In this document: piece after piece, positions 7,895 through 23,986 of the stretch | Layout of the letters: each line of letters opens with the position of its first letter | Position numbering within the stretch: position 1 is the stretch's first letter | NCBI GenBank assembly: GCA_000002445.1 | Contig: CH464491.1 | Coordinates: 928,001 to 992,000, forward strand | Length of the DNA stretch: 64,000 bases | Direction: 5' to 3' | From: Trypanosoma brucei | Taxonomy: Eukaryota | The notes under the pieces: generated by a model | The model's input: the letters and a program-made list of their open reading frames with translations, nothing else | Database searches by the model: none | Told to the model about the DNA's origin: nothing | Made by a program: the position numbers and the translations under genes

Positions 7895-10800
7895 ATGAGG
7901 CGAGTACATCAGATTCCCTGTAAAAAACTGTTTAGGCAGTTGGGGCGTAGGGGAATATTATCCACACCGCCATCGCCAGTGGAGTCAGCAGAACCCACAA
8001 CCATCCGCTCAAGGGGCTACGGACCCAGTAAACATTTACTGCGCGGTGTTGACGCGACACGCGGCGTCGTTGTGGAAGCAGCCCTCAGCCCAGCGGATGT
8101 TGAGATGCAGCGCCGCGTTCTTTCGATGGCGAATCCAAATGTGGCGATCCACGCCAAACTTGAGGGTGAGCCTTCACCCGTTCATTCTGGCACCAACTCC
8201 CTTCATGGTGACGACCAGCGTCTGGCCGACCGTGCAGGTGTTGCTTCATCGGAGCAGTTAGCCTCTGTGGCAACTGTTATATTGGATGAGGTGAAGGAGC
8301 AATTGCAGCTCAACCTCAGCGCTGCGGATGCCTCACAAGATAGTCGAGCAGCCACTGTAGTGAATGCCGTCGCGGAGTGCCTGCGGAATGAGGTGGACCG
8401 CCTCATTCACGCGAACCACACGCAGGAGTCGTCCATTACCCGAGTGTTGAGGGAAAATACAGACCTGATTTGCAAGCGCGTCGCCGATGTCATATGCTCG
8501 GAGCAGCTGAAAACACTATCATTCAAGGACGTAGGTCAACTTCCGCAGGTCATCAAAGAGGTGGGAACGTCCCTTGTGAGGTTAGAGAGCGCCTTGAAGA
8601 GTGCACTGGATTCGAGCTTTGGAAAAGACAAAAATCTCGAAGAAGTATTGGGAGATTTGCGCGAACACATTGTCTCTGCCATCGAGCAAGCCTCGCATTT
8701 CCAACAGGAGCGACTTCTCGCTTCTGTGAGTGATTTACTGGCCGACTGCGCCGATGCGCAAGACAGCAAGTCACGTTTGGCTCAGGCTGCGAGTCTGAAG
8801 GTAATCGAAAAGAACGTGAGGGATGCCATGTCACAGATGGTGGAGGACACGCAACATAAGGTCCAGTCTGTATTGCGTGACCTCCGTGGGAGTGCTTCGA
8901 CCTCTGATGCCGCTGGAAGTACGACGAACGTAAGCAGCGGTAACGAGGTGGCGTTCGAGCGAATTTTAGCATCTTACGGCGAACGTCTTGAAGAACTGCG
9001 TGAGTCAACAGCTGCGGCCGTTGACCTTAAGGAGCTTATGATGGAAATTCATAGCATGCATCAGACAAGTGCAGGAGATGTGAGTGAAGTCAAAAACCTT
9101 GTGAAGAAACTAAAGAGAGAATTGATAAGCGCTCTCCAACCCTCCAACACTGAAAACACTGAAGGCAGCACTGTGGAACGTAAGTCCAGTGACACAATAG
9201 ATTACAATGGGATTTTTGCGGATAAATTGGACGCATTGGCAGACGATGTAATATCAAGGATAGATGGGCGACTGAAGGAGCAGCACGCTGATGTGAGGGA
9301 ACTGTCGGCGAGGCTTCTCCAGCTTGAAGATGTGATCAAGAAAACTCCCCGTGCTGCTCTCCAGGTGGGGTCAGTGCCTGAGCTGAACGACGACCGGCTG
9401 CTGGCGTTGGCACAAAGTATCAGTGAGAGTATTTTATCATCTCTTCCCCCGCATTCCGCCCCCGCTGTAGAGGAAAAAGAGCAACAGGAGCCACCGCGAC
9501 CGAGCGTCAGCACAGCGGTTGCCACTACTGCACACACCTTTACAGCAACAGAGCTCGCGGAGGCTGTGTCAGCTGCTCTCACCCCGAGACTGGATGAATT
9601 GGCGGCAGCCATCCAAAAGAAAGTGGCACCTACCTCCACTGCCTCGGGCAACGAATACGACAACAGACACATGGGTGAAACACAACTCGTAACCGTCGCA
9701 CAAACGATATGTGAAGGAGTGCGGGAAGCAGTTAGGGAAAGTATGGCCCTTTACAAACCACCCGTCGCCTCACCACCCACCCCGGCCCCGGGAGCAGTTG
9801 TTGCACCAGCTGTTGACACGTCTGCCTTAGAACAGGCAATGGTGACGAAAGTGGAAGATCTCAAAAGATGCGTTATGGACGCCGTGCAGGAAATGGACCG
9901 ACCACAGGAAATTGATCTCTCGCCGTTCCGTACGTACCTCGATGATGTGCTGCGCAGCATGCAGACAACTCTGAGCAAGCAGCAGCAAGCGACACAGGAC
10001 AAGGTTGATGGTGTGGTTGAAGCGCTGGCAAAGAAGCTTCAGGATTACCAACACCAATTAGAGTCGAAACTTCAAAGGCAGCACCGAGATCAAGTGGAGC
10101 AGATACAGGTTGTGCGAAGGGCACAAGAGCAAGATATGAAAGCTGATGAAGAGACGTGGAAACAACGGATGTCCCGGAACCAAGAAGACGCCGAGCAAAG
10201 GACAAACGAGCAAAAGTCTGCTGTCACGGGGGCCATGCAAGAGGTGTTTCTGCAAGTCAGGCAGCGGCTGACAGAAGATGTTCGCACACTTCTGAAAGGT
10301 GAAGTGGCCGCTGCCCTCATACCACTCGATGACCTTTACAAAGAGTTACGTGAAAGTGGGCAAAAGTCGCGTACCGCCTTGGAGGCGAAGTTGCGTTCTG
10401 TCGAGGACACACTGCAGTCCGTCCTTGACTCTGAACGACACCGCTCAGATCGTCTACAGGCAACACTTGACGACGTTATAGCATGTATTAAAAATAACTC
10501 GGGTGAAGTGAGCGGTTCGGAAACCGAAGCGTTGAAGTCCCTTAAAAGGCTATTGGAAGACCTCGCTGAGCGCAACACCGCTACCGGAATGGAAATATGT
10601 TCTGACGTGAAGGCTTCTTTAGAACGTACAGAAGAACTTCACGTTCAAACTGCAGAGAAGATGTTGAGGGGGTTTGATACGCTGAAGTATGAGATTCACG
10701 AAGGACGGCAACAACTTGACCAGCTCCTATCGTCCAACCAGCAGAATAAAGATGTTGCACTTGCTGTCGAGGCCATGCGCACGAAACTGGACGAAGTCCG

Positions 10801-12400
10801 TTATTCCCTCGACTGCATTATGGCATCTGTCCGTGAGATGCAAGAACACCCCATGAGACAATTACAAGAGCCGCAGCAGCAGCAGCAGTCCTTACTTAGC
10901 GAAACTGAAGTGAAGAGTCCAATAGATGACAAGGTGTTGGAGCAGTATGAGCAACGACAGCGAGAGGCATCCGATTTAATTGCGTCGCGTCTCGAAACCC
11001 TCTCGGCAACAACTCGTGAGGTTCTTTCGCAACTCCAACGGCAGCAGCCACGAAGATCGGAGGAGGAGATGGGTTCGCAGCCGGCCGTAACCACAAATTT
11101 AAGTGTGGAGAGTCTGCAAGCTATGGAGGGTCGTTTAGGTGAACGCATGCAGGCATTGCAGGCTGCGCTTGATGAGCTGACAAAAGTCAGTGCCAGTGTT
11201 CCTCCTACAACAGAGGTTTTCAGGAAAGACGAGGTAGACGGTGTTGAGGGAAGCAAAAGCTTCATAAAGGAAGTTGATGAGCTCATGACGCTCGTGAAGT
11301 CGTCGCGAAGTGTACAGGCGAAGCAAATGTGGGAGAGGCTGAGCATCTTGCGCACATCTCTGGTTGATGTGAGTACGAAAAAAACTGGAGACACCAACAT
11401 TAAACAACTGTTGGGGGCTCTGGAGGAAAATCGTCTGAAGCTGCGAGAGGAAATGGGGGAAGCAGAGAGAGAATTGGTTATAAAAATTGATGCCGCAACA
11501 CAGAAAGCGGTAGAGCACTTTGCTGCTCGTATAGAGAGGGCCGTTAAGGCGTCAGCAGATGCGGGGCTGGGGCAGCTGCGCAACGATCTCAAAGAAAGTA
11601 GTGAGATATTGAAAGCACACCAGCACCAGTTTTCGTCGCAGCTGCAGGATAGAATGACTAACATAGAGAGAACAAATAGGGAGTGCGCCGCTGAGTTAAA
11701 AGAAAAGTTGCGGGACACCAGCAAGGAGTATCATAATGCTTTGGGACAGTTTGTGAAAAACGATATGATTGCAGCCCTGCGTAGTACTGTTAATGAGGCG
11801 ACTACCCAGCAGATGCGTACCTTCACGCAACAGTTCACTTGGCAAAAGGAACGAGAGGAAACGAACAAAGAGGCGGTGATGCGGAGCGTTCAACAGGTTT
11901 CCCAAGGAGTTGGCAAACTCCAATCAATGAGCAGTGAGGTACGCACAGCCGTAACCAGCAGTTCGGCAGGTGTCGTTCAGGAGGTGAGGAACGCACAGAA
12001 GGACCTCGCGGTGCTTTTCGAGAAACGGCTTGCTGCCGTGTTAGAGCAGCAGAAAAAGCAGCAAGTGGTTCAAGTATTGTCGCCTGTGCGAGTCGGGGAA
12101 GCCGATTCTTCAAACGGTATTCCAAGTGAGACCACCGACACGCCTTCGCTTGTCACGATGGTAAATCCACAGGGGGCGTCCCACCTTTCATGGTTTTTGC
12201 TGTCGCAATCGGTTGTGACTATCATCACCATCATGCTGTGCGCATACTTTTTATTTGCGGCCTTCCTTGTTGCCTTCGTGCCTATTCCACTTACTGATGA
12301 ATTTGCCTCACACATGGAGCAGGCAGCGGATAATGATGTCTCTGAAATTGCCCTCAAGAGGCCGTTAGTCTCACGTGTAGCGGACCGGGTAATTCTATAA
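7895..12400 (+). CDS. Large coiled-coil protein (1501 aa) with C-terminal transmembrane anchor; hypothetical
   Basis: This is a 4.5-kb uninterrupted ORF in the same orientation as its neighbours. Its composition is heptad-like and rich in E, L, Q, K and R throughout. One strongly hydrophobic segment, SWFLLSQSVVTIITIMLCAYFLFAAFLVAFVPIPL, sits about 50 aa from the C-terminus. No catalytic motif was recognised. Confidence 0.8.
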   Translation: MRRVHQIPCKKLFRQLGRRGILSTPPSPVESAEPTTIRSRGYGPSKHLLRGVDATRGVVVEAALSPADVEMQRRVLSMANPNVAIHAKLEGEPSPVHSGTNSLHGDDQRLADRAGVASSEQLASVATVILDEVKEQLQLNLSAADASQDSRAATVVNAVAECLRNEVDRLIHANHTQESSITRVLRENTDLICKRVADVICSEQLKTLSFKDVGQLPQVIKEVGTSLVRLESALKSALDSSFGKDKNLEEVLGDLREHIVSAIEQASHFQQERLLASVSDLLADCADAQDSKSRLAQAASLKVIEKNVRDAMSQMVEDTQHKVQSVLRDLRGSASTSDAAGSTTNVSSGNEVAFERILASYGERLEELRESTAAAVDLKELMMEIHSMHQTSAGDVSEVKNLVKKLKRELISALQPSNTENTEGSTVERKSSDTIDYNGIFADKLDALADDVISRIDGRLKEQHADVRELSARLLQLEDVIKKTPRAALQVGSVPELNDDRLLALAQSISESILSSLPPHSAPAVEEKEQQEPPRPSVSTAVATTAHTFTATELAEAVSAALTPRLDELAAAIQKKVAPTSTASGNEYDNRHMGETQLVTVAQTICEGVREAVRESMALYKPPVASPPTPAPGAVVAPAVDTSALEQAMVTKVEDLKRCVMDAVQEMDRPQEIDLSPFRTYLDDVLRSMQTTLSKQQQATQDKVDGVVEALAKKLQDYQHQLESKLQRQHRDQVEQIQVVRRAQEQDMKADEETWKQRMSRNQEDAEQRTNEQKSAVTGAMQEVFLQVRQRLTEDVRTLLKGEVAAALIPLDDLYKELRESGQKSRTALEAKLRSVEDTLQSVLDSERHRSDRLQATLDDVIACIKNNSGEVSGSETEALKSLKRLLEDLAERNTATGMEICSDVKASLERTEELHVQTAEKMLRGFDTLKYEIHEGRQQLDQLLSSNQQNKDVALAVEAMRTKLDEVRYSLDCIMASVREMQEHPMRQLQEPQQQQQSLLSETEVKSPIDDKVLEQYEQRQREASDLIASRLETLSATTREVLSQLQRQQPRRSEEEMGSQPAVTTNLSVESLQAMEGRLGERMQALQAALDELTKVSASVPPTTEVFRKDEVDGVEGSKSFIKEVDELMTLVKSSRSVQAKQMWERLSILRTSLVDVSTKKTGDTNIKQLLGALEENRLKLREEMGEAERELVIKIDAATQKAVEHFAARIERAVKASADAGLGQLRNDLKESSEILKAHQHQFSSQLQDRMTNIERTNRECAAELKEKLRDTSKEYHNALGQFVKNDMIAALRSTVNEATTQQMRTFTQQFTWQKEREETNKEAVMRSVQQVSQGVGKLQSMSSEVRTAVTSSSAGVVQEVRNAQKDLAVLFEKRLAAVLEQQKKQQVVQVLSPVRVGEADSSNGIPSETTDTPSLVTMVNPQGASHLSWFLLSQSVVTIITIMLCAYFLFAAFLVAFVPIPLTDEFASHMEQAADNDVSEIALKRPLVSRVADRVIL

Positions 12401-13874
12401 CCTCCTTTTTTGTTCGTTTCAATCTTCCTTTTATTCTTCCACCACCTCTCACGCCCCTACATGTACACCCACATTTCATATATTTGGTGTGTAGTAAACA
12501 TTTTTCTCCCCATAGATGGGTGACATTCCAGCGTAACTACTTCGTCTTTAAGGTTGGTGTTGGCGTACGTTGGATTTGGCATGTGACCCCCTACCACTTT
12601 GTGTTGCTGGTGGCAGGCGTTGTCTTATTATTATTATTGTGTATGTGTGTGTGTATTTATGTGTTTCTTTATTTGTTTGGTGGAAAAACTTGGGAGCGAC
12701 GCCGCTGCGTTCGAAGGAACAGGGAAAGGAAACAGATAAGTATACGCCCGCTTTTTGCATTCCACTCTGTTAAATGTTCTTCCATCTTTTTTTTTGTTAT
12801 CTTCCCCCCTTATCCCTCATATATCCACGTCTGTTGCACACGTCGTCTCGTTTGCAGCCACCGGAGGCCCGTTGCGTCGACTGGTTCTGTGGGCGAGAAG
12901 GTTGCCGCAAGATGTTTTTGATTACTTCCTCTTCGTTAAACTTATTGTTTTCAGCTGTTAGTTGGTTGTATCTGGTGCCTGTTTCCTCATTTATTTATTC
13001 CGCTCTCGGTGTGATGCTCCACACATTAGTTTGAGATCATTCCCACTGACGTTGCCTTCGTATTCCGCTGATATTTTACTCTCTTGTCTTGTTTATCATT
13101 GCTTGTTTTCGCATTTCCTTTCGTCTTTATGGGGTTGTTCAAAAAAAAAAAACGAAATCAGCTAAAGGTTACTTAAAAGAAGAGGTCTAAGGAAAGTTGA
13201 GAGGGGGAGTAGCGTACGCGGTCGGGCGCAACAAAGAGAAGTAAAAGGTTAACCCTTTCTTTGTTTGAGTGCAGTGCCTTTTTCCCACGCGCACAAAAAA
13301 AAAGAAAAGAGAACCACGAAAACAAAGGGGGTGAGGAGAGTAAAGGAAATTTTTTTCGTAAAATTTAAGGCGGAGGGCGGACGAAGCGATATATACTAGT
13401 GTATTAGTAAGGAGGGAAAGACAAGAGAACATCAGTAAAGGTGGCACTCAAGGGTTGCAATTAATAGAGGAGCAGGGGAAACAAACATATTAAGTTGTAT
13501 ATATATAAGGGGAGAAACAGAAAGGCATCGGTCAGGAAAGTTGTTGCGCACGCACCACTTCGGCACGCTGTCACGAACTGTGCGTGTTTGGCGAAAAGAT
13601 CAATACACATAGAAAGCGAAAGGGAGAAGAATATTCTTTCTCCTTCCCGGGAAGGAGTACTGGACTGTTTGATTGTTCGTTTTGCACACTAGCACGCGGG
13701 TGTGAAAGAGGTCGCAGGAAAAGCGCATAAGTTAGAGTCAGAGAGGGAAAAGTGTTAGATACACTTGTTCTAATATACCTCCTTGAACATATCCACTGGT
13801 CAGGGGAGTGAAGTGAAGCAACAGTGACACGGGTTGTTTCAGTTGCGTTAATAATAGTAAGAATAGCGGCGTGA

Positions 13875-16685
13875 GTGGGGGGTTTGATGGCAGAGGTGAA
13901 GCTTCCGCGGCCGGGCCGAAGCCCCTCCTCGGGCAAAGTCACCGTCACCACCTCTTCAAAGCGCCAAGCAAAAAGCGCCCCATTCAAATTTCTCCGCAAA
14001 GATGAGGGACGGCTTTCTTACTCGTGCACACCAGAGTCCCCAGTTTCAGTGTGTGGTAATGTTTCCCACGGTAACAGTATGACTAACCGTGAGCTCGCTG
14101 CCATGGATAGGAACAGTTCCCGCTCACTCCGCGAAGCAATAGCCAATGATATGCGCAAAGGGAAAGCTAACGATCCTTTCGGCGGCTTTGAGGTCGCGGT
14201 TCCGAAGCGGGGACCACCACCTGGCGCATCGCCGCGGGAGGAACGTGGGATGTCTCTTGAAGGGTCGCAGTTGCATGACAACGTAAGTGTATCATCCCCT
14301 CCTGCTGCCGTGCAGCACACCTCTTCCCGCCTGGCTGTGGGAGACGCTAACCATAGCGAATCCATCGGGGACAAGTCCGTCAGCACGAAACGACTTGAAT
14401 CCCGTACTTCAGACGAGTCGGAAAGAACAGTAGAACCCCAGCCACAACAACACCAGCAGCTACAGTTGCAGCAACACCAACTGCAGCAGCAGCAACAAAT
14501 GCAGTTGCAACAACAGCTACAGCAGCAGCAACAGCTACAGCTTCAACAACAACAGCAACAACTGCAACTGCAACAACAGCAGCAGCAGCAAATACAACTA
14601 CAACAGCAACAGCACCAGCTACTGCCAAACCACAGTCACCAGATGCAATTGCAAACCCAACTCCCACAGCAACACCCTCCACAAGGCTATCAACAGCAGT
14701 TGCTGAATCACGGCCAGCAGTGGCAGCACTCGCAGGTGCAGGCGCAACCGCAGCCGACGCGACAGCGTGTGAGTCCAATGAACACCAACACTTTTTCGCG
14801 GAACATCGAGGAGAGTGAGTTGGGCGACTGGTGCCCCTCGCCGGTGCAACAACGTCGGTGGAGGAACGGGGAATCGGACAACGGACATACTCGTCGGTCG
14901 ATTGCTACCCGCTACGGTGACCCAGGAGAACTAGACGGTGAATATGTGAGTGGTGGAAGGAGCCTCCGCAACTATTTTCGACCTCCGCTTCCAGAATATC
15001 ATCAGCCACGTGAGGAGGAGGAGTTGGTGGGCCAGCTGGAAGAGGAATTGCGCGTCACGAAGGAGGAGCGATCCCGGTATTATCAGCTGCGCATGCAACT
15101 GGAGCGTGAGCGGCAGCGTTTCGAGGAATACCGCTCTGGAGTGGAACAGGACATGGAGGACGAACGGGTGCGGTTGGATGCCGCACGGGCTTCGGAGCAG
15201 CGCCAGGCAAAAAAGGACGTGAAGGTAGTGGAAGAGCGGTATAAATCTACTCTCGAACTTCTCAGGACAGAGCGTGATTCAAACACAAAGCTGACACAGG
15301 AAAACGAGATGCTGCGCCAGCAACTGGAGGTGACGACAGCACGGTTGCGTGAGTCGCAGAAGCTGCAAAAGGCGGAGACGAACCGGCTGCGACGTGAGAT
15401 TGAGTCTCTGACGCGGCGGAACGAAGAGCTGTTGGAATTGGCAAGAGAACAACAACTCACAGCATTAGAACGTGGTGAGACGCTGACACCACCACTGCTG
15501 TTGCACAGCGGCCCAAATATACGACATAAAGCTTCGGCTAACAGTAGTAGCGCTCCGAGGAGCGGTGAAGATGTATACGAATTGCATGGTAGTTCACTAC
15601 CCACTAGAAGCTACTCTTCTGAGCAGAATCGTTATCTGGACATTGTAGAGAGGGAGAGGAGACTAGCGGAGGAAGAGGAGCACGAGCGGAAACGGTTGGA
15701 AGCTGAGGATAGAAGACGTGCCGAGATGGAAGAAAGGCGAAGGCGCATTGAAGCCGAGGAAGCGCGGCGTGCTAAAGAGGAGGAGGAAAGGCGAAGGCGC
15801 ATTGAGGAGGAGGACCGTCGTCGCGCCCATGAAGAGGAGGAAAGGCGGAAGCGGGTTGAAGCCGAAGACAGGCGCCGCGCTGAGGAAGCGAAGCGCAAGT
15901 CTGCGGAAGCTGAAGAGAGGCGTCGTGCTGAAGAAGAGGAAAAGCGCAAACGTGCGGAAGCGGAGAACAGGAAGCGGGTTGAGGAGGACAAGGTTAGGCG
16001 CGCAGATGCGGAAGTTGCTCCGCGGCGGAAGGTAGATGCAAAGAAGGTTGTGCGGGAGGAGCGTTCGCAGGCGATCGACGAGGGCGCAACTAGCAAGAAG
16101 CTTGAGGCACGCCAGCAGCGGCGCTCCTCCGGTCATCCTGTTTTAACTCCTCGCGCGCAGAGCTCCAAAACAGCGAATTCTGCAGTAGCAACTGCCCGTG
16201 CAGCATCGCAGGCTTGCACCTACGCAACTCGCAAAGGACGCCGCGCACCCACTGCCAGCGAATTAACCGCGGACAATGAGCCCGTTCCGGATGAAGACTT
16301 TCCGAACGATACCGTCGTGTCGCAGACATCCCTAGGAGAAAATCCCAATAAGCGTGAAGTGTTGTACCGTAGCGGGAAGCGAGAGATACACTACACGAAT
16401 GGGACTCGCAAGATTATTCTTCCCTCGAGCCACGTGATGCTCTACTTCGCAAACGGAGACATCAAACGGACATTCCCCTCAGGGAAGAGCACATATTGGT
16501 ATGCTGTGGCGCAGACGACACACACACAGTATGCAGATGGAGCTCAGGTGTTTCAGTTCCATTCTACCGGGCAAGTAGAGCGCCACTTACCGGATGGAAA
16601 AAAAGAAATTCTTTACCCTGACGGTATCTACAAGGTTGTGCATCCAGACGGTAGGGATGAAACCATTTTCCCTGACGAAAGTTGA
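13875..16685 (+). CDS. CPAP/SAS-4-like protein with TCP10 C-terminal (G-box) domain; poly-Q and E/R/K-rich repeat regions
   Basis: The C-terminal ~110 aa carry repeated YxNG/YxDG beta-strand units (YTNGTRKIILPSSHVMLYFANGDIKRTFPSGK...YADGAQVFQF...YPDGIYKVVHPDGRDETIFPDE). These are typical of the TCP10_C/G-box of CPAP/SAS-4 centriole proteins. A long poly-Q tract and an E/R/K-rich repeat block also lie within the ORF. Confidence 0.75.
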   Translation: MGGLMAEVKLPRPGRSPSSGKVTVTTSSKRQAKSAPFKFLRKDEGRLSYSCTPESPVSVCGNVSHGNSMTNRELAAMDRNSSRSLREAIANDMRKGKANDPFGGFEVAVPKRGPPPGASPREERGMSLEGSQLHDNVSVSSPPAAVQHTSSRLAVGDANHSESIGDKSVSTKRLESRTSDESERTVEPQPQQHQQLQLQQHQLQQQQQMQLQQQLQQQQQLQLQQQQQQLQLQQQQQQQIQLQQQQHQLLPNHSHQMQLQTQLPQQHPPQGYQQQLLNHGQQWQHSQVQAQPQPTRQRVSPMNTNTFSRNIEESELGDWCPSPVQQRRWRNGESDNGHTRRSIATRYGDPGELDGEYVSGGRSLRNYFRPPLPEYHQPREEEELVGQLEEELRVTKEERSRYYQLRMQLERERQRFEEYRSGVEQDMEDERVRLDAARASEQRQAKKDVKVVEERYKSTLELLRTERDSNTKLTQENEMLRQQLEVTTARLRESQKLQKAETNRLRREIESLTRRNEELLELAREQQLTALERGETLTPPLLLHSGPNIRHKASANSSSAPRSGEDVYELHGSSLPTRSYSSEQNRYLDIVERERRLAEEEEHERKRLEAEDRRRAEMEERRRRIEAEEARRAKEEEERRRRIEEEDRRRAHEEEERRKRVEAEDRRRAEEAKRKSAEAEERRRAEEEEKRKRAEAENRKRVEEDKVRRADAEVAPRRKVDAKKVVREERSQAIDEGATSKKLEARQQRRSSGHPVLTPRAQSSKTANSAVATARAASQACTYATRKGRRAPTASELTADNEPVPDEDFPNDTVVSQTSLGENPNKREVLYRSGKREIHYTNGTRKIILPSSHVMLYFANGDIKRTFPSGKSTYWYAVAQTTHTQYADGAQVFQFHSTGQVERHLPDGKKEILYPDGIYKVVHPDGRDETIFPDES
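14441..14735 (+). repeat. Coding (CAG/CAA)n poly-glutamine tract within the CPAP-like CDS
   Basis: The translation is QQHQQLQLQQHQLQQQQQMQLQQQLQQQQQLQLQQQQQQLQLQQQQQQQIQLQQQQHQLL... Confidence 0.9.
15645..16075 (+). repeat. Coding tandem repeat (~48-51 nt, 5-6 units) encoding E/R/K-rich helical repeats inside the CPAP-like CDS
   Basis: The DNA unit aggcgaaggcgcattga(a/g)g...gaggaggaggaaa recurs. The peptide units are RRRRIEAEEARRAKEEEE, RRRRIEEEDRRRAHEEEE, RRKRVEAEDRRRAEEAKRK and SAEAEERRRAEEEEKRK. Confidence 0.85.
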
Positions 16686-18223
16686 GAGAGTAGTGCAATT
16701 CCTTTACTCAATTTAGTTTTTCTTGAAATAATTACCTTGTGGTGATGCCCGTAGACCTTTTTCAGGTACTAGTCAAAATGTGCGGTGTCATAGTTAAGTT
16801 TCCGACTTATTGTATGCCATCGTTTCTCCTCCTTTCTCCGTTCTATCTCCTCTTCTCACTCTACATTTCTTTCGTTTGCTCTGAGTTATATGCACCGTCC
16901 ACGAGTTTCTGCTTTTTTTTTCTGTTTTTGAGAGGGGAATGGGAAAAGATTTTACAGCTTTGTTGCTCACACCCCATATAATTTGGATGAGTGACATGCA
17001 CTTTATTGGATACGCATAATATAAGGAGGAGCAGGGGAAGTATTTTAACCCTAATGTTATCCCCTCGCGCACCCGTTCTTTCCCCTGCTTTTGTGGGGAT
17101 TTTTACTTTCTTTTTTTATCTCTCACATCTTTCTCGTTGTTTTTTTTTTTTGGTTCATCAAGCAACATTGACTTCCCACTTACCCATGCTTCTCTCGTGT
17201 TTGTGCAGCATTTTTTTTTTTTTGTATGGGTGTGTGGCTCCCTTTTATTACTTTGAAGGATGGTTTGACTTATTGTGCGCACTCATAACCACCTTTCACT
17301 GAAGGTAAAAGGGAGGTGGCACTGGACTGGGAAGAAAAAGCGAAAGAAATGACTTTGCTTCGCTGGCACACACAAATTCTACCATTATACGATGTTTGGT
17401 ATATGTTTTTGTGTGTTTAATTGCACTTGTTCTTGTGTTGCGCTAATGTGAGGGTGCTTGGTTTTATGATTTCGATGTTTTGCTTTTTTTCTTCTTTTTT
17501 TTTATACAGGAAAAAAAAAGAGAGGAAACGTAATATAACTTCACTGTTGTCGTTATCATTTGTTTCACCATTCACTGTTTGCGTGGGCCCGACTCACCTG
17601 TGGCGTCAACGTACGCTTTATGAGTTCAATTGTGCAAGTCAGCTGTCGTTGCAATAATTGATGAGAAGCAAGTGAGATTGTGGGGGGGGGGGAAAGAAAG
17701 AAAGATAAAAAGAACGGGAAAAAGTTATATATATATATATATATATTTATTTATTTATATTTATATATATACATGCGTGTGAGTGTGTGGGTGTATATTT
17801 ACTCCTTCTTTTGTGAGAGAAGAGACATGAGTGCGGTGTTGCGCTCAATTATTTGAGGGAAGGGGTTCACCATCGGGTATTGCTATGAAGCTGAGACAAC
17901 CTCATCCCTTTCCCCCCGTCGTAACAAAAACAAAAACAAAAAAAAACAACAAAAGTGAAAGGAATGTCTGTACTTAGTTTTTACAATATAGAAAAAAAAA
18001 CGAGAGAGAGAGAGTAGGAAACGAGGCCGATGTACTTTTTTTTTGTTGTTCTCTTAATGTTTCAGTCTCCGAAAAGTGCCTCGGGAAGGGAACACGGATG
18101 AGAGCTTAACGCTCGTATTTTCCCGTTGCTTTTCCATCCCACTTCATATTTCGTTCTTTTTGTTTGCATTCCGCCGTAAACTTTCGGTGCGGGTTGCCTC
18201 CTTCTGTCCGCTGCGTTTTTCGT

Positions 18224-18250
18224 TTGTTGTTGTTGTTGTTGTTGTTGTTT
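18224..18250. repeat. (TTG)9 microsatellite
   Basis: Directly visible. A second (TGT)n run lies at 19929-19950. Confidence 0.95.
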
Positions 18251-19677
18251 TTTGCTTTGAACTATTACCATTATTATCATTATTACGTTGCCGTACCCTT
18301 CTCCCCTCCTTTTTTTTTACTTTTCACTTCATGAAGCGTGGGTGCAAGGTGATAATAATAGTAATAATGATAATATTGTTGAGAAATGAAAAAAAAAAGG
18401 ATGAGGCCGAGGGATTGACATGGAGAAAAGGAGGCAGAAATGGTGGTTATTGGGAACGGTAACGAACGGGTGAAGAGTTTGTTTTTTTTTTCGTGTTTTC
18501 ACTTCGTTTGTCTTTTTCACCGTTTCGTTCATACCATCATAGACAATTTTTCTTGTAAAAATAAATAAATAAAAAAGGTGTGGGCGGAGGAAAGGAAGGA
18601 AGGAATGGAAGGAAGGAAGGGATGGTTGGAGTAAAGGAAAGAGGGGGGAAAAAAAAAGAAGCACAGTTGAGAAAATATATACATTTTTTTTTGTTTTTTG
18701 TCTTTACTTTTTTCCCCCTTTTGCGTGTATGGAAGTGTGCGTTGAAATGTTGTTATTGTTGTTGTTCTTGTTTTTCTGCGGTGTGTGCTATTTTTTCTCC
18801 CTGTCCTCTCGCCCCTTCTTCTTTTCCCCTTTTTGAGAAGTAAAGAGTGAAAGGAATGACTTAATGAGAGAATGGGTTAAGAGAAAATGAAGTGATAATG
18901 TGGAAGATGAAAAAAGAGGAGCCAGTTGTGATCTTTGCATTTATACTTTACTTTTTCTTTGCGTGTGTGTGTATGTGTGTTTTTTTTTTTTTGGGGGGGG
19001 GGCGGGGGAAAGTTATATATTTGGAATTTTTTCCTATGGTGGTGTGGTGTAGTGGCTGCGTTTATGCTTGTTTTTTATTTATTTACTTTTCCCTAATGCA
19101 GAGGCGCACGCATGCATAATTACTGCTGTTGGTATTATGTGATGTGTGAAATGTCCGTCTTTAATTTGGGATTTGGTTGTATTTAGAGCGTATGCGGGAT
19201 GGCGGTTTAGCGAGGAACTGCGAAAGGTGGAAGAAAATTATGGGGGAAAAAAGGAAAAAAAAAAGGAGTACGTAAAAGAAAGAAAGGAAGACACTTGTAA
19301 GAATAATGAGTTTCGTTGCGGCACTAAAGGGGAAAGCCAAGGAAGGAACGGTGCATATAAACAAAGAAAAAGAAGAAAAGGAAGTGACGTTGGGGGCGTA
19401 AAGTTGTTTCCTCCACTTTACTTTACTTTTTCTTATTTTTTTTTTTTTACTTATGATTCTTATCTTTCTTTTCGTTATTTTCGACTCTGGTATGTTTTTC
19501 TTCTTTTTGACCCTTCCGCTCGCTGCGCTCCCCTCTCCCCTTCCCCGACCCCTTTTTTTTTGGGGGGGCTCTTCCTTGAACTCTAAGTGTTATCATCTTT
19601 ATATATTTACACTTCTGCACCTTCCTTCACCTTCAGCTTCACCTTCCCGCAACGCCGCCGCTGATGAGTTTGTCTGA

Positions 19678-19714
19678 TGATAATAATAATAATAATTATT
19701 ATTATTATTATTTC
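19678..19714. repeat. Perfect AT-only palindrome (TAA)6-(TTA)6
   Basis: taataataataataataattattattattatt is self-complementary and has cruciform or hairpin potential. Confidence 0.9.
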
Positions 19715-20989
19715 TTCCCTCTCCCACTTATTTCGCTCCTCTGTTTTCTTACACAGTGACCTTCCAATGATGTTGGTGCATCTTCAGAGACACTGCCGCA
19801 CCGCCGTCGTAGTTCCTCTGCTGAATTTTTATTTTTCAAATAATAAAGCAAGAAATAAGTTTGTAAGAATTTGTGATTGTTTACATATATATATATATAT
19901 ATATCCGTAATGGTTGTTATTACTACCTTTGTTGTTGTTGTTGTTGTTGTGGACAGAACAGGAGAGAATCAACCGAACAAAAATCCCCGAAGCTGAAAGA
20001 GAAACCAAACAAACAAACAAAAAAAAAAAGGAACTTCTTAAAACCTTCTTCCCCTCCGTTACATCTCATTTGCCATATCGGTGTGTGAAAGCACGGCTTT
20101 GCTACGATGCCCCGCCGTGTTTGTTTGTTTTTGTTTCATTTGGTCCGATGCATGGCTCTGATGAACTTCATTTTCTCTTCACATGCATACGTATCATATT
20201 CTTTTCTTTTACACTTTTCCCTCTTTTGTTCTTTCTTCATGTACGACTTGTGTGTCTTTCCCTTCTTTTCCCCGCCACCCTCATGCCTTTATTATTAAAT
20301 GACGCATGTGTACCAATGAAAGATGGAACTTGTTAGGTCGTTAGGTGAAGTTTTTCTTTTTTTTAAAAAAAAAAGAAAAAAAAAGAGAAAAAAATTTTCG
20401 AGCCATGGGAGAAGGCGTTTGATGTGTCGTGATGGGGAATGAGATGGAGGAATTGATGTGTGCGTGTGTGTGTTTGTGTGTGGCGTGCTCTTGTAATCTG
20501 AAGTTTAAATTTCAACCTTATGGCCATTGCGGTACTGATTTGGGTTTTTACCTCCCTCCCTCCCTCCCACTGTGTCAATCCTTTACATATTTATGTGTCA
20601 ATTTATTTATTTATTTGTTTGTTTATTTTTATTTATTTAATTTGCTGTTACTTTCATCCCGACATAATTTTGGACCTGTCGCCAATTGTGGTGTCCCCCC
20701 CAAAAAAAAATAAACATATTAATATTCATAAAGGAGAAGGGAAGGTTTTTGACATCAACGAAACTTAAAGGGAAAACAAGTCAACACGTGGAGAAAATTA
20801 AAGAGAAATAAGTGAAGCACAAGAAAAAGGGGAAAAAATAAAATAAAATAAAGAACTAACACAACATTTTCCTTAAAAAAAAAAAAAGGAATTCAAAGAA
20901 ATAGCAGTAGCAGAAGCAAAAGAAAAAGAAAAAAATAAAAAAAAAAGAAAAGCACCAAATACAATTATTATTTATCCACTTACGCATCA

Positions 20990-21406
20990 ATGGTTGAGGT
21001 ACCGCGTAATTTCCGTTTGTTGCAGGAACTTGAGGCGGGGGAAAAGGGAACAGGTGTAAGCCAAAGTGTCTCTATTGGCCTCAGTGGGATGGATGACATT
21101 TATATGCATAATTGGAATGGCACTATTCTCGGACCTCCCGGTACCACATTTGAGAATCGCATCCTCTCACTAGAAATTCACTGCGATGAACATTACCCCA
21201 AACGCCCGCCGAACATTAAGTTCATCAGCCGTGTGAACCTGCCGTGTGTGAGCAGTGATGGTACTGTTGATAAAAACAAGTTTGCCGTCTTCAAGACTTG
21301 GGATCGCAACTTCACAATGGCGCATTGTTTGATGGAACTCCGTCGGGAGATGTCGCTTCCAGCTAATAAAAAACTACCGCAACCGGAGGAGGGTTCAACG
21401 TATTGA
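20990..21406 (+). CDS. Ubiquitin-conjugating enzyme E2 variant (UEV/Mms2-like, catalytically inactive UBC fold)
   Basis: The N-terminus MVEVPRNFRLLQELEAGEKG and the segment WNGTILGPPGTTFENRILSLEIHCDEHYPKRPPNIKFISRVNLPCV align with the UEV1/Mms2 family. The HPN active-site motif is replaced by HYP and the catalytic Cys position is lost. The protein is 138 aa, a typical UEV size. Confidence 0.82.
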   Translation: MVEVPRNFRLLQELEAGEKGTGVSQSVSIGLSGMDDIYMHNWNGTILGPPGTTFENRILSLEIHCDEHYPKRPPNIKFISRVNLPCVSSDGTVDKNKFAVFKTWDRNFTMAHCLMELRREMSLPANKKLPQPEEGSTY

Positions 21407-21419
21407 TGAGGCCGCCATT

Positions 21420-21600
21420 TGTTGTGATCGCTGGCCCTCTTTCTTTTTCTTTTTTTTTTCCTTTTCTTTTTTTTTTTCTTCACCTTTCTTCATTTGTTTG
21501 TTTTGTTTGTTTTTGGTTCAATTCCTTCCTTCCTTCCTCCCCTCCCCTCCCCTCTCCTCTCTATTTCTCTCCTCTTTCTTTCTTTTTCTAAAACCCTCTG
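21420..21600 (+). promoter_or_regulatory. 180-nt homopyrimidine (C/T) block downstream of the UEV gene
   Basis: It is almost purine-free on the + strand (ctttctttttcttttttttttcc...cctcccctcccctcccctctcctctctatttctctcc). It is a candidate polyadenylation or trans-splicing control tract, but no ORF lies within 2.3 kb downstream. Confidence 0.5.
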
Positions 21601-22898
21601 CTACGACACTAAAACTATGATAATTATGATGGTAATAACTTTTAATTATTATTATTATTATTGCGATTATAGTTAATACTCTTATGTTCTCCTAAGTGTG
21701 TGTGCATGCGTTTTAAAAACAAAAAAAAAGGGGAAAGAAGGAGAAATGAAGTTAGAGCGGAAAAATAGGAGAAAAGTACGAGTCAACGTAAAAAAAAAAA
21801 GGAAGAAGAAACAGCACCAAATAAAAACGTGGGAGAAAAATGAAAAAAAAAAAGAAACAGAAACTGAAACTGACACAAGAAAATAATAAATTTTTTATTT
21901 GTAAAAAAGAATGAAGGAAAGAGGTAAATGTTAGGAGAGATTGGTTGGTAGGGCCATCATGTTGACAAGACAGAAAAGGCAAAAAAAAAACAAAGGGGGG
22001 CAGGAACAGAAATAAAGTAAAATGAGAAAAGGAGTTTTTTTTTTTTTTTTGAAAGAAAAAAAAGAAGAAAGGGAAAGGGATATGAGAGAGTGAATCGTAA
22101 TTATACACGGAAGTAAATAAAGGATGGAAGGAATTAATTGTGTGTGTGTTTTTTTTGTTGTTGTTGTTTTTTTGTTGAGGGGAGAGGAAGAAATAAAAAG
22201 AGAAGAATCAGAAGAAAAAGGGAAGAGAAAAAGAAAGTGGAAAGAGGGGAGTGTATAAGGAAGAGTTGCGAGGGAGTCATGCATCTATATATCCCATGCT
22301 GTGTGTTTCTTTTTTTTTTATTATTTGAAGGAGGGGGAAATAAAAACAACAATAACAACACTCATTACATGCGCACGCACAGGGACGACATGCGTTTGAA
22401 TTTGATATAAGAAGAAAGAATTGCTTGTGAAGAAGAAGGAATAGTGAACAGCGAACACCAATTTTTTTTTTCTAAAAAAAGAAAAAAAAAGGGACAAAAG
22501 GATGCATTGTTTTGAGGTTATGAGCGCCCGCCAATCCTAAACCCTCCATACTTTTAAAAAAAAAAATGATGTTTGAATGACGTCCATAACACATTTCTTC
22601 GAAAGCGAGGAGGAGGATAAAAGAGGATGAAATTGCTCAAAAAGAGTAAAAGGGATAAAAATGTATCATTTGAAATACTCCAGAAGTAACGCGGTATACC
22701 ATATAGGAAGCAGAATATATATATGGTATATGTTTTTCATGAAAGTTTCCTCTACTCTTCCAAAAAAAGAAAAAGAAGAAAAGAAAAAAAAAATCATAAC
22801 ATGAGCCTCAGAATGTTGCCGGACAAGTGAATGTACGTTTTTTTTTCTTTTTCTTCTTTTTTTTTTTCTTCTGTTCGACTTGATTTTGATATCTTCCA

Positions 22899-22961
22899 TA
22901 TATATATATATATATATGAGTGAGTGAGTGAGTGGGGGGGGAGGGAGGGAGGAAGGAAGGG
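22899..22961. repeat. Compound microsatellite (TA)9-(GAGT)4-G-rich (GGGA/GGAA)n
   Basis: Directly visible as tatatatatatatatatat gagtgagtgagtgagt ggggggggagggagggaggaaggaaggg. Confidence 0.9.
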
Positions 22962-23986
22962 AGTTGAAGGCCCGTCACTACTTGTGTGGACGAGCGTTTA
23001 TGTACGAGTGTGCTTGTGTTTGTGTTTGTGTGTGTGTGTTTTTGTTTTTTTTTTTCGTTTGTCGGTGTTCGTGTTCGTCTTTGAAAAGGGGGAGGGGAGG
23101 AGTTGCTGATGTTTCTCTTAACTTTGCTTTATTCTTGGTTCTGCGTTACCCTGCTTAATAAAAAAAAACAATATGTGAAGAAGGGAATTATATATATATA
23201 TATATAGAAGAAAGCAAAAACAAAAAAAGGAGCGAGATATAATTCTTCTGCTAGGGTGTTGCACTGTTCGTGAGTTCCCTCTTTTGTTCTTTTTTTTTGT
23301 TGTTGTTGTGAAGGTTGAGGAGTCAATTTGTAGGGACCACACGTATTGTCTCAATCTTCCATCTTTCCTTTCCTTTTTTGTGTGTGTTTTGTTCAGTATT
23401 TTATCTTTTTCCTTTTCACTCCACTGATTGCTCTTTTCTCTTTCCCTCTCTCTTGTAGTTGTTGTTTTGTCATATCAATGATAGATGAAAGGCAAGCTAA
23501 TAGAAAACATAAAACATGGCAGTCGGTGATATCAATGAGGTAACCTCTTTGTAAAGTCGGATGTATTGTTTTGATCCTGTGATTTGAATTATTATTTTCC
23601 TCAATGTCGGTTATATTATGAACATATGGGGGAGTGGAAGGTATACATAGGTGCAATTTGTGATGGTTTGTGTGAGAATATCACAAGCTTTCTAGCGGGT
23701 GCACTTCGTGGTCAGATGTTTTTTTTTCTTTTTCCTTGGGCTTCTTCACATCAACTGCAGGTGGTATTAGACGCTGCTGTTGAGATACTTGCGAGGATGC
23801 TGACGTGCAGAATTCCCCCAATAGCACAATATGTTGATTTGTTACTCTCTTCTATTCGACAGGTTTGTTTGTTTGTTTGTTTGTTTTTCCTTGTTCCCGG
23901 TTTCCTCATTTGTCTTTCCTTTTCCTATACTGCTTTTCATATCCGAAATTATATTTGAACTTTTGCTGGCTAATCCTGTGAAGCTT

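What the first reader, a model, noticed from the sequence alone, without database searches (positions are those of the whole stretch)
13875..16685. CPAP/SAS-4-like basal-body candidate with G-box, poly-Q and E/R/K repeats
The C-terminal YxNG/YxDG beta-repeat block is the hallmark of the TCP10_C/G-box that binds STIL/Ana2 in centriole assembly. Upstream lie a ~90-residue poly-Q/L tract and five or six tandem E/R/K-rich units. These units are the type that forms single alpha-helix (SAH) spacers. The CPAP-type G-box architecture is known, but poly-Q and SAH-type repeats are not usual parts of it.
Basis: partly seen in the sequence, partly recalled or inferred. Interest (0 to 1): 0.5.

Follow-up and report, generated by a model that had tools for sequence, protein, structure and literature searches.

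The report
Known trypanosome SAS-4/CPAP gene (TbSAS-4)

Summary
It is 100% identical to T. brucei TREU927 XP_828412.1, which I equate with TbSAS-4/Tb927.11.3300.

- **G-box:** the C-terminus is a real Tcp10_C/G-box (Pfam 54.2 bits; E 1.8e-32 to zebrafish CPAP; model rmsd 1.2-1.7 Å).
- **Poly-Q/L tract:** about 86-90 residues.
- **E/R/K repeats:** about 128 residues, in roughly 14 units of 9 aa (about six 18-aa double units).

Further findings from this work:
- A CPAP-type SAC tubulin-binding motif (FLRKDEG…Y) lies at residues 35-45. No LID element was detected.
- The G-box is a short form that stops at the equivalent of zebrafish residue 1053. This form is shared across Euglenozoa.
- Seven of eight STIL-contact residues are identical to zebrafish CPAP.
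- The E/R/K block has single-alpha-helix chemistry. The central helix looks like a coiled coil.
- Length is invariant at 932 aa in five Trypanozoon sequences. T. cruzi varies from 4 to 9 E/R/K units.

Published work places TbSAS-4 at the FAZ tip, where it controls FAZ length. A proteome-wide tagging map instead reports basal body plus subpellicular array. "Basal-body candidate" is therefore only partly right. The gene is already known, so interest is low.

The parts
13887..16685 (+). Complete coding sequence of TbSAS-4 (932 aa plus stop codon at 16683-16685).
   Evidence: The product is 100% identical to XP_828412.1/EAN79300.1 (T. brucei TREU927) and SCU69494.1 (T. equiperdum). The computed mass of 107.9 kDa matches the 108 kDa listed for Tb927.11.3300 TbSAS4 in PMC4827413.
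13983..14021 (+). SAC-type tubulin-binding motif, aa 33-45 (FKFLRKDEGRLSY). F35-L36-R37-K38 and Y45 have the same spacing as human CPAP F375-L376-K377-R378 and F385.
   Evidence: The motif F[LIVM][KR][KR]x[ED]G occurs 75 times in 161 family proteins against 2 in their reversed sequences. hhalign places it on the metazoan SAC (E 1.5e-4). Tubulin-contact residues are taken from PMC4884677. The block is invariant in kinetoplastid orthologues.
14118..14222 (+). Clade-specific conserved block, aa 78-112 (SRSLREAIANDMRKGK..DPF..VAVPKRxPPP). It comprises a short helix (81-91) followed by a proline-rich motif. Its function is unknown.
   Evidence: Invariant columns in alignment A1. Conserved out to diplonemids. 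AlphaFold predicts a helix at 81-91 with pLDDT 73.
14415..14672 (+). Poly-Q/L tract, aa 177-262 (core 186-245 is 72% Q and 18% L). Weaker Q-richness continues to about aa 295. Predicted alpha-helical over 186-242.
   Evidence: Orthologues have little or nothing at this position, except T. conorhini with a 51-aa Q tract.
15012..15473 (+). Central long alpha-helix, aa 376-529. This is the most conserved helical region and is probably the dimerising coiled coil.
   Evidence: AlphaFold predicts a continuous helix at pLDDT about 90. Hydrophobic enrichment at heptad a/d positions has z = 3.0 against shuffles. Invariant columns are dense here. CPAP has a parallel dimeric coiled coil before its G-box (PMC3824074).
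15627..16058 (+). E/R/K repeat helix, aa 581-724 (charged core 584-711). About 14 units of [E/A]4[R/K]4x. Candidate single alpha-helix (SAH) spacer of roughly 17-21 nm.
   Evidence: The core is 75% charged, 7% hydrophobic and net +1. Opposite charges sit at 55% of i/i+4 positions. There is no heptad signal (z = 0.5).
16314..16676 (+). Short-form G-box/TCP domain, aa 810-930, modelled as 13 beta strands. It aligns to zebrafish CPAP 942-1053, and the protein then ends. STIL-contact equivalents are F854, Y870, Y872, H879, Q881, F891, Q896 and E898.

Best explanation
The locus is the single-exon gene for TbSAS-4 (Tb927.11.3300), the Trypanosoma brucei orthologue of the centriole protein CPAP/SAS-4/CENPJ.

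Shown here, from N- to C-terminus:
- a basic N-terminus carrying the CPAP 'SAC' tubulin-binding motif at residues 35-45;
- a euglenozoan-specific conserved helix plus proline-rich block (78-112);
- a Trypanozoon-expanded poly-Q/L tract (177-262);
- a conserved 154-residue helix with heptad character (376-529);
- a roughly 128-144-residue E/R/K repeat helix with single-alpha-helix chemistry (581-724);
- a short G-box (810-930) that keeps the N-terminal, STIL-binding part of the CPAP beta-sheet and seven of its eight STIL-contact residues.

Inferred mechanism. The protein is an elongated, probably dimeric, microtubule-associated scaffold. The SAC end binds tubulin or microtubules. The central coiled coil dimerises. 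The ER/K helix acts as a semi-rigid spacer of about 17-21 nm. The G-box edge captures a proline-rich partner and/or stacks head-to-tail.

From the literature. [quoted passage not shown] Its knock-down gives epimastigote-like cells. A genome-wide tagging map also sees it at the basal body and subpellicular array.

The poly-Q/L and E/R/K segments are lineage-specific low-complexity elaborations, not assembly artefacts.
For: Identity. The product is 100% identical to the T. brucei TREU927 and T. equiperdum proteins, which sources annotate as 'T-complex protein 10 C-terminus' or 'Centromere protein J'. Its mass matches the published TbSAS4 entry. T. cruzi orthologues are named 'Spindle assembly abnormal 4'.

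G-box. The STIL-contact mapping is, using residues from PMC3776556 and PMC3824074. These positions average 97% conservation in 28 euglenozoan sequences, against 67% for the domain as a whole.

Short G-box. In 36 of 150 family representatives the protein ends within 20 residues of the main match, and this group includes nearly all of the euglenozoan-like sequences. In 103 of 150 a further 40-100 residues follow. All full-length kinetoplastid orthologues end at ...FPD(E/G)x.

SAC motif.

Helices.

Repeats are real. Five Trypanozoon sequences are all 932 aa and differ by 5-7 substitutions. The Q tract uses 23 CAG and 21 CAA codons with Leu interruptions, and the longest pure codon run is 4.

Function and localisation. 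PMC5993322, PMC5210500, PMC5683654, PMC11555346, PMC4827413, PMC4551316 and PMC9981465.
Against: - The primary functional paper (Hu, Zhou & Li 2015) could not be read here. Its findings are taken from papers that cite it.
- I did not find a record that links XP_828412.1 to Tb927.11.3300 directly. The link rests on species, domain, chromosome-sized contig and matching mass.
- Localisation reports disagree: FAZ tip and not basal body against basal body plus subpellicular array.
- No LID element was detected, so CPAP-like plus-end capping cannot be assumed.
- Tubulin binding, dimerisation, SAH behaviour and proline-motif binding are all inferred from sequence and a monomer model built on only 8 sequences (pTM 0.28).
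- No STIL/Ana2 orthologue has been reported in trypanosomes. This rests on my own knowledge of Carvalho-Santos 2010 and Hodges 2010 and was not tested here.
Confidence: 0.9

Rival explanations
1. It is a canonical basal-body assembly factor that works as CPAP does in animals. In this reading it is recruited to the pro-basal body through a STIL-like partner bound to the G-box and controls triplet-microtubule growth. The FAZ-tip signal would be secondary.
For: SAC motif conserved. Seven of eight STIL-contact residues identical and near-invariant across Euglenozoa. TrypTag reports a basal-body signal. SAS-4 is counted among the ancestral centriole core proteins conserved in T. brucei.
Against: Papers citing the dedicated study state that TbSAS-4 is not at the basal body and that its depletion changes FAZ length and morphology. 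The LID element needed for CPAP's plus-end capping was not detected. The C-terminal third of the G-box is missing. T. brucei does not use the conserved polo-like-kinase pathway for basal-body biogenesis.
Confidence: 0.25
2. The E/R/K helix is not a single alpha-helix. It would instead continue the dimeric coiled coil, or form an antiparallel charged hairpin.
For: It follows a coiled-coil-like helix. A monomer AlphaFold model cannot tell an SAH from a coiled coil. Alanines recur in the units.
Against: The core is 7% hydrophobic and 75% charged, with opposite charges at 55% of i/i+4 positions. Hydrophobic enrichment at a/d positions is absent (z = 0.5, against 3.0 for the central helix). A disordered linker of about 50 residues (530-580, pLDDT below 50) separates the two helices.
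Confidence: 0.15
3. The poly-Q and E/R/K tract lengths are assembly artefacts (collapse or expansion).
For: Both regions are tandem-repetitive at the DNA level. One short-read assembly yields a 621-aa product that begins just after the Q tract. T. cruzi assemblies differ, with 4-9 E/R/K units.
Against: Five full-length Trypanozoon sequences are all 932 aa with only point differences. They come from TREU927/T. equiperdum, a second T. equiperdum, T. b. gambiense DAL972 and two independent read-set assemblies. The repeats are imperfect at the DNA level, with 63-79% matches for the Q- and E/R/K-tract arrays and a longest pure CAG or CAA run of 3-4 codons.
Confidence: 0.03
4. It is a TCP10-like protein that shares only the G-box, not a true SAS-4/CPAP orthologue.
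For: Apart from the G-box and the 13-residue SAC motif, no sequence similarity to metazoan CPAP was detected.
Against: The SAC/PN2-3 element is described as exclusive to CPAP/SAS-4 proteins. It is present here and in 66 of 150 family representatives at a consistent position N-terminal to the helices. The order SAC, helix, G-box is kept. The best PDB hits are CPAP and Sas-4.
Confidence: 0.03

Closest known systems
Vertebrate CPAP/CENPJ (zebrafish G-box structures 4BXP, 4BXR, 4LD1; human PN2-3-tubulin structure 5ITZ)
   Same: C-terminal single-layer beta-sheet G-box, 45% identical over 111 residues, rmsd 1.2-1.7 Å. Seven of eight STIL-contact residues, including the microcephaly glutamate equivalent E898. 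SAC motif with the same F-L-basic-basic...aromatic spacing. A long helix before the G-box.
   Different: SAC sits at residue 35 rather than about 375. No LID was detected. The G-box stops at the equivalent of zebrafish residue 1053, whereas the ordered domain runs to about 1106; the model has 13 strands against 17-20 in the crystal structures. It adds a poly-Q/L tract and an E/R/K SAH-like helix that are rare in the family. Reported localisation is the FAZ tip.
Drosophila Sas-4 (4BY2, 4MPZ) and C. elegans SAS-4
   Same: G-box homology, E about 1e-17 to 1e-18, and top Foldseek hits. Same family.
   Different: More distant than zebrafish CPAP. [quoted passage not shown] No equivalent partner or requirement has been shown for TbSAS-4.
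Kinetoplastid and diplonemid SAS-4 orthologues (T. cruzi 'Spindle assembly abnormal 4', T. grayi 'centromere protein J', Lotmaria passim, Diplonema papillatum, Papus, Artemidia)
   Same: Same architecture: N-terminal SAC, the SLREAIANDM...VAVPKRxPPP block, a conserved central helix, a charged region, and a short G-box ending ...FPD.
   Different: They are 745-793 aa in T. cruzi and T. grayi because the poly-Q/L tract is absent or short. Their E/R/K units differ in sequence (for example EAEEKERKRL in T. cruzi) and vary in copy number, 4-9 units. The T. brucei charged block is the longest seen, at 128 aa.
ER/K single alpha-helix (SAH) domains such as those of myosin X, myosin VI, caldesmon and INCENP (from my own knowledge)
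   Same: Alternating blocks of about four acidic and four basic residues, very low hydrophobic content, dense i/i+4 opposite charges, and no heptad seam.
   Different: The resemblance is in composition and physics only, with no homology. Monomeric helix behaviour has not been measured for this protein.

Membership tests
CPAP/SAS-4/CENPJ | C-terminal Tcp10_C / G-box (TCP) domain | tested here: met
   Pfam PF07202 scores 54.2 bits against a cut-off of 36. E 1.8e-32 to zebrafish CPAP G-box chains. The top 11 Foldseek PDB hits are CPAP/Sas-4 TCP domains. It is a short form that ends at the equivalent of zebrafish residue 1053.
CPAP/SAS-4/CENPJ | SAC element of the PN2-3 tubulin-binding domain (human F375, L376, K377, R378, F385) | tested here: met
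   F35-L36-R37-K38...Y45 has identical spacing. The motif occurs 75 times in 161 family proteins against 2 in reversed controls. hhalign E 1.5e-4 aligns SAC on SAC. Tubulin binding itself was not tested.
CPAP/SAS-4/CENPJ | LID element of PN2-3 (human F338, E339, Y341; metazoan consensus KTFEExLEEQL about 35 residues before SAC) | tested here: not met
   Only 34 residues precede SAC and none resemble LID. hhalign of the metazoan LID alignment against 17 full-length euglenozoan sequences gives E 0.39.
CPAP/SAS-4/CENPJ | Coiled-coil dimerisation domain N-terminal to the G-box | tested here: inconclusive
   Continuous helix 376-529 at pLDDT about 90, with heptad a/d hydrophobic enrichment z = 3.0. 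The oligomeric state cannot be tested here.
CPAP/SAS-4/CENPJ | Proline-motif (STIL/Ana2 PRxxPxP) binding edge of the G-box | tested here: met
   F854, Y870, Y872, H879, F891, Q896 and E898 are identical to zebrafish F978, Y994, Y996, H1003, F1015, Q1019 and E1021. T1005 is replaced by Q881. Conservation at these positions is 97% in Euglenozoa. This covers residue conservation only; binding and the partner are unknown.
CPAP/SAS-4/CENPJ | Centriole or basal-body localisation and a requirement for centriole assembly or elongation | not testable with these tools
   The literature conflicts. One line says not at the basal body, at the FAZ tip, with a FAZ-length phenotype. TrypTag reports basal body plus subpellicular array.
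CPAP/SAS-4/CENPJ | [quoted passage not shown] | not tested
   The first 45 residues contain 11 K/R against 3 D/E, read directly from the sequence. No homology test against the CPAP MBD was possible.
ER/K single alpha-helix (SAH) domains | Long helix dominated by E, R and K with i/i+4 opposite charges, little hydrophobic content and no heptad seam | tested here: met
   Core 598-711 is 75% charged, 7% hydrophobic and net +1, with 55% i/i+4 opposite-charge pairs. AlphaFold helix spans 581-724. Heptad a/d z = 0.5.
ER/K single alpha-helix (SAH) domains | Stable monomeric helix in solution | not testable with these tools
   This needs CD plus AUC or SEC-MALS on the recombinant fragment.

The most novel reading that the evidence does not exclude
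Euglenozoan SAS-4 keeps an intact proline-motif-binding edge on a shortened G-box. Seven of eight STIL-contact residues are identical and 97% conserved across the clade. Yet no STIL/Ana2 orthologue is recognised in trypanosomes, and the protein is reported at the FAZ tip. This would predict an undiscovered proline-motif partner. That partner could be a cryptic STIL-like basal-body protein, a FAZ-tip protein, or the protein's own conserved VAVPK(R/K)xPPP block (P106-K107-x-x-P110-x-P112) acting in trans for head-to-tail assembly. The species-variable ER/K helix would set the distance between the microtubule-binding end and that partner, so that an ancestral centriole 'ruler' module has been redeployed to measure FAZ length.
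Probability: 0.2. Interest if true: 0.5.

Novelty: already known. Interest (0 to 1): 0.2.

Why it matters
It matters little as a discovery. The gene is annotated with this domain in public records, and its knock-down phenotype and localisation are published.

The modest added value is a finer anatomy that I did not see stated in the papers I could read:
- SAC is present at the extreme N-terminus, and no LID was detected.
- A short G-box that keeps the STIL-binding edge is shared across Euglenozoa.
- An SAH-like ER/K spacer is typical of the clade and varies in length between species and between T. cruzi strains.
- The poly-Q/L tract is a Trypanozoon-specific expansion.

These features give concrete mutants for resolving the published disagreement over basal-body versus FAZ-tip function. 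They also point to a search for the G-box partner in an organism that appears to lack STIL.

Tried and rejected
1. My first translation calls used a start one base off and failed.
2. phmmer of the N-terminal 121 aa and of a 29-aa SAC peptide against PDB sequences found no PN2-3 chain. The motif is too short for phmmer, so I tested it across 150 family representatives instead.
3. An HMM of the kinetoplastid N-terminal module hit only the diplonemid Artemidia outside the clade. The 78-112 block is therefore clade-specific.
4. I considered 'RFEEY' at 411-415 as a displaced LID and rejected it. hhalign does not align it (E 0.39), and FE[ED][YF] is not specific, occurring in 39 forward against 14 reversed sequences.
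5. A simple 3.5-residue Fourier test did not separate the helices. I replaced it with an a/d-register test.
6. The Q/L tract as a heptad coiled coil is not supported (z = -1.3).
7. The self-ligand idea (VPKRGPPP as a PRxxPxP mimic) is weak. The P at +4 and +6 is not kept in T. vivax, and +6 is not kept in several non-trypanosomatid sequences. AlphaFold gives no confident docking, with pLDDT below 50 for 99-137. I keep it only as speculation.
8. Rfam and tRNA scans of the window found nothing.
9. The primary TbSAS-4 paper and Hodges 2010 are not held.
10. Literature searches for STIL in kinetoplastids were uninformative.
Full report
**What is there.** The window carries a run of plus-strand genes typical of a trypanosome polycistron. 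In order they are squalene epoxidase, a SAM-kinesin, a 1501-aa helical protein, the gene in question, a UEV/E2-like gene, RagA/Gtr1, an RRM protein, a P4-ATPase, an AAA protein and a 4460-aa HECT ligase. The flagged ORF at 13875-16685 is real. Its listed GTG start comes from the bacterial-code ORF caller. An in-frame TGA lies at 13872-13874, and the first ATG is at 13887. This gives a 932-aa protein of 107.9 kDa and pI 8.9.

**Identity.** The protein is 100% identical to T. brucei brucei TREU927 XP_828412.1/EAN79300.1 and to a T. equiperdum protein. Sources name these 'T-complex protein 10 C-terminus, putative' or 'Centromere protein J C-terminal domain-containing protein'. T. cruzi orthologues (52-56% identity) are named 'Spindle assembly abnormal 4'. 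A FAZ review lists Tb927.11.3300 = TbSAS4, 108 kDa, 'T-complex protein 10 C terminus', at the anterior tip of the FAZ filament. I equate the two on species, domain and mass. I did not see a record that links the accessions directly.

**Check of the three observed features.**
- *G-box.* Pfam Tcp10_C scores 54.2 bits, E 1.1e-14, against a cut-off of 36. phmmer against PDB sequences gives E 1.8e-32 to the zebrafish CPAP G-box, with query 819-930 on chain residues 10-121, which is 45% identity over 111 residues. An AlphaFold model built on 8 orthologues shows 13 antiparallel strands (810-927) at pLDDT about 90. Its 11 best Foldseek PDB hits are all CPAP/Sas-4 TCP domains, and the zebrafish CPAP hits superpose at rmsd 1.2-1.7 Å.
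- *Poly-Q/L tract.* Residues 177-262 are at least 50% Q, and the core 186-245 is 72% Q and 18% L. The codons are 23 CAG and 21 CAA, interrupted by Leu, His, Met and Ile codons, and no pure codon run exceeds 4.
- *E/R/K repeats.* DNA periods are 27 and 54 nt. The protein period is about 8.7 aa. There are 14 sub-units such as EAEDRRRA, EMEERRRRI and EEEERRRRI, which is about six 18-aa double units.

**Additional anatomy.**
- *SAC motif.* Residues 33-45 (FKFLRKDEGRLSY) match the SAC tubulin-binding element of CPAP. Its contacts are human F375, L376, K377, R378 and F385, and the spacing F35-L36-R37-K38...Y45 is the same. I searched 1.84 billion protein representatives with the G-box alone. This gave 1761 hits at E ≤ 0.001. 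Of the best 150, 66 carry F[LIVM][KR][KR]x[ED]G. In a set of 161 family proteins the motif occurs 75 times, against 2 in reversed sequences. Profile-profile alignment puts the kinetoplastid motif on the metazoan one (E 1.5e-4). In metazoan-like proteins it lies at roughly residues 200-380, and here it lies at 35.
- *LID element.* The upstream LID element (metazoan consensus KTFEExLEEQL) was not detected.
- *Clade-specific block.* Residues 78-112 (SLREAIANDMRKGK..DPF..VAVPKRxPPP) are invariant in kinetoplastids and recognisable in diplonemids. They are not found elsewhere.
- *Central helix.* A 154-residue helix (376-529, pLDDT about 90) is the best-conserved helical region. It shows heptad a/d hydrophobic enrichment with z = 3.0, consistent with the coiled coil that CPAP has before its G-box.
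- *E/R/K helix.* This helix (581-724) has a core that is 75% charged, 7% hydrophobic and net +1. Opposite charges occupy 55% of i/i+4 positions, and there is no heptad signal (z = 0.5). This is the signature of an ER/K single alpha-helix. At 0.15 nm per residue it would span about 17-21 nm, which is an inference.

**The G-box is a short form.** The alignment to zebrafish CPAP ends at residue 1053, and the protein stops two residues later. The crystal structures are ordered to about residue 1106 and have 17-20 strands.
- In 36 of 150 family representatives the protein ends within 20 residues of the main match, and these include nearly all of the euglenozoan-like sequences. In 103 of 150 a further 40-100 residues follow, with a second matching stretch.
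- All full-length kinetoplastid orthologues end at ...FPD(E/G)x, so this is not a truncation artefact.
- The clade includes Lotmaria passim, Diplonema papillatum, Papus ankaliazontas and Artemidia motanka.
- The retained part is the STIL-binding part. The published interface runs from the N-terminus of the domain to just beyond E1021.
- Mapping the published contact residues gives F978→F854, Y994→Y870, Y996→Y872, H1003→H879, T1005→Q881, F1015→F891, Q1019→Q896 and E1021→E898.
- These positions are 97% conserved in 28 euglenozoan sequences, against 67% for the domain. F854, Y870, F891, Q896 and E898 are essentially invariant in 119 other family members. They may also be structurally important, so conservation alone does not prove ligand binding.

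**Are poly-Q and SAH unusual here?** Yes.
- Among 157 family proteins, a segment of at least 60 aa with at least 70% charged residues occurs in 10. Nine of these are in the euglenozoan clade, and the T. brucei one is the longest at 128 aa.
- A Q-rich segment of at least 30 aa occurs in 7. The T. brucei one is the longest at 86 aa, and T. conorhini has 51 aa at the same position.
- Other trypanosomes have only short Q runs there, which accounts for most of the size difference of 932 against 745-793 aa.
- AlphaFold predicts the Q/L tract as a helix (pLDDT 78-93), but it has no heptad pattern.

**Repeat stability.** Five full-length Trypanozoon sequences are all 932 aa and differ by 5-7 point substitutions. 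They come from TREU927/T. equiperdum, a second T. equiperdum, T. b. gambiense DAL972 and two independent read-set assemblies. One 621-aa product from a short-read assembly begins just after the Q tract. It is probably a contig break or an ORF-calling effect. In T. cruzi the EAEEKERKRL-type array varies from 4 to 9 units between assemblies. That may be true variation or collapse.

**What is known experimentally.**
- Papers citing Hu, Zhou & Li (JBC 2015) state that TbSAS-4 is not localised to the basal body. [quoted passage not shown] Depleting it in trypomastigotes produces epimastigote-like cells.
- It was a TbPLK BioID hit scored as FAZ.
[quoted passage not shown] - I could not read the primary paper.

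**Most likely mechanism.** The modules and their conservation are shown. The rest is inferred: an elongated, probably dimeric scaffold whose basic SAC-bearing N-terminus binds tubulin or microtubules. The central coiled coil would pair two chains. The ER/K helix would hold the G-box at a fixed distance. The G-box edge would bind a proline-rich partner and/or stack head-to-tail, as the zebrafish domain does in crystals. Loss of LID argues against CPAP-like plus-end capping. Which structure it acts on, FAZ tip or basal body, is a matter of the published experiments and is unresolved between them.

**Verdict.** The homology interpretation is right, but the basal-body label is only partly supported, and the gene is already known and characterised. 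The finer points are useful annotations rather than a discovery: SAC present with no LID detected, a short G-box with a conserved ligand edge across Euglenozoa, a clade-typical SAH-like spacer, and a Trypanozoon-specific Q/L expansion.

Noticed in passing
window 14193-14222 (aa 103-112, EVAVPKRGPP): The conserved motif VAVPK(R/K)xPPP resembles the STIL consensus PRxxPxP that binds CPAP G-boxes (P106-K107-x-x-P110-x-P112). It is invariant in most trypanosomatids but not strictly kept in T. vivax or diplonemids. It could be a self-ligand or a partner-binding site. This is speculative.
   Followed up: partly
P0003-P0008 (T. cruzi orthologues), about aa 490-585: The E/R/K array of EAEEKERKRL-type units varies from 4 to 9 units (48-96 aa) between T. 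cruzi assemblies or haplotypes, while Trypanozoon sequences are invariant in length. This is either true copy-number variation or short-read collapse.
   Followed up: partly
window 16686-23830: An AT-rich stretch of about 7 kb (GC 0.36-0.44 against about 0.5 elsewhere) lies downstream of TbSAS-4. It contains only one convincing small gene and no Rfam or tRNA hits. It probably consists of long UTRs and intergenic sequence.
   Followed up: partly
window 20990-21406 (+): A 138-aa ORF with a ubiquitin-conjugating enzyme (UQ_con) domain, E 1.9e-15. By its sequence it looks like a UEV/MMS2-type variant, which is my own reading.
   Followed up: partly
window 7895-12400 (+): A 1501-aa ORF lies immediately upstream. 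It has only a weak sub-threshold apolipoprotein-like helical match and a hydrophobic C-terminal segment that looks like a tail anchor. Its function is unknown.
   Followed up: no
window 3548-5707 (+): A kinesin motor protein with a weak N-terminal SAM-domain match (21.7 bits, just under the cut-off of 23), which would be an uncommon combination.
   Followed up: no
window 44986-58368 (+): A giant 4460-aa ORF with Laminin_G_3, SPRY and C-terminal HECT domains, which is a HERC/HECT-type ubiquitin ligase.
   Followed up: no
P0019 (Logan assembly, 621 aa): This product starts at the equivalent of residue 312, shortly after the Q-rich region. It suggests that a short-read assembly or its ORF call breaks at the poly-Q tract.
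   Followed up: no
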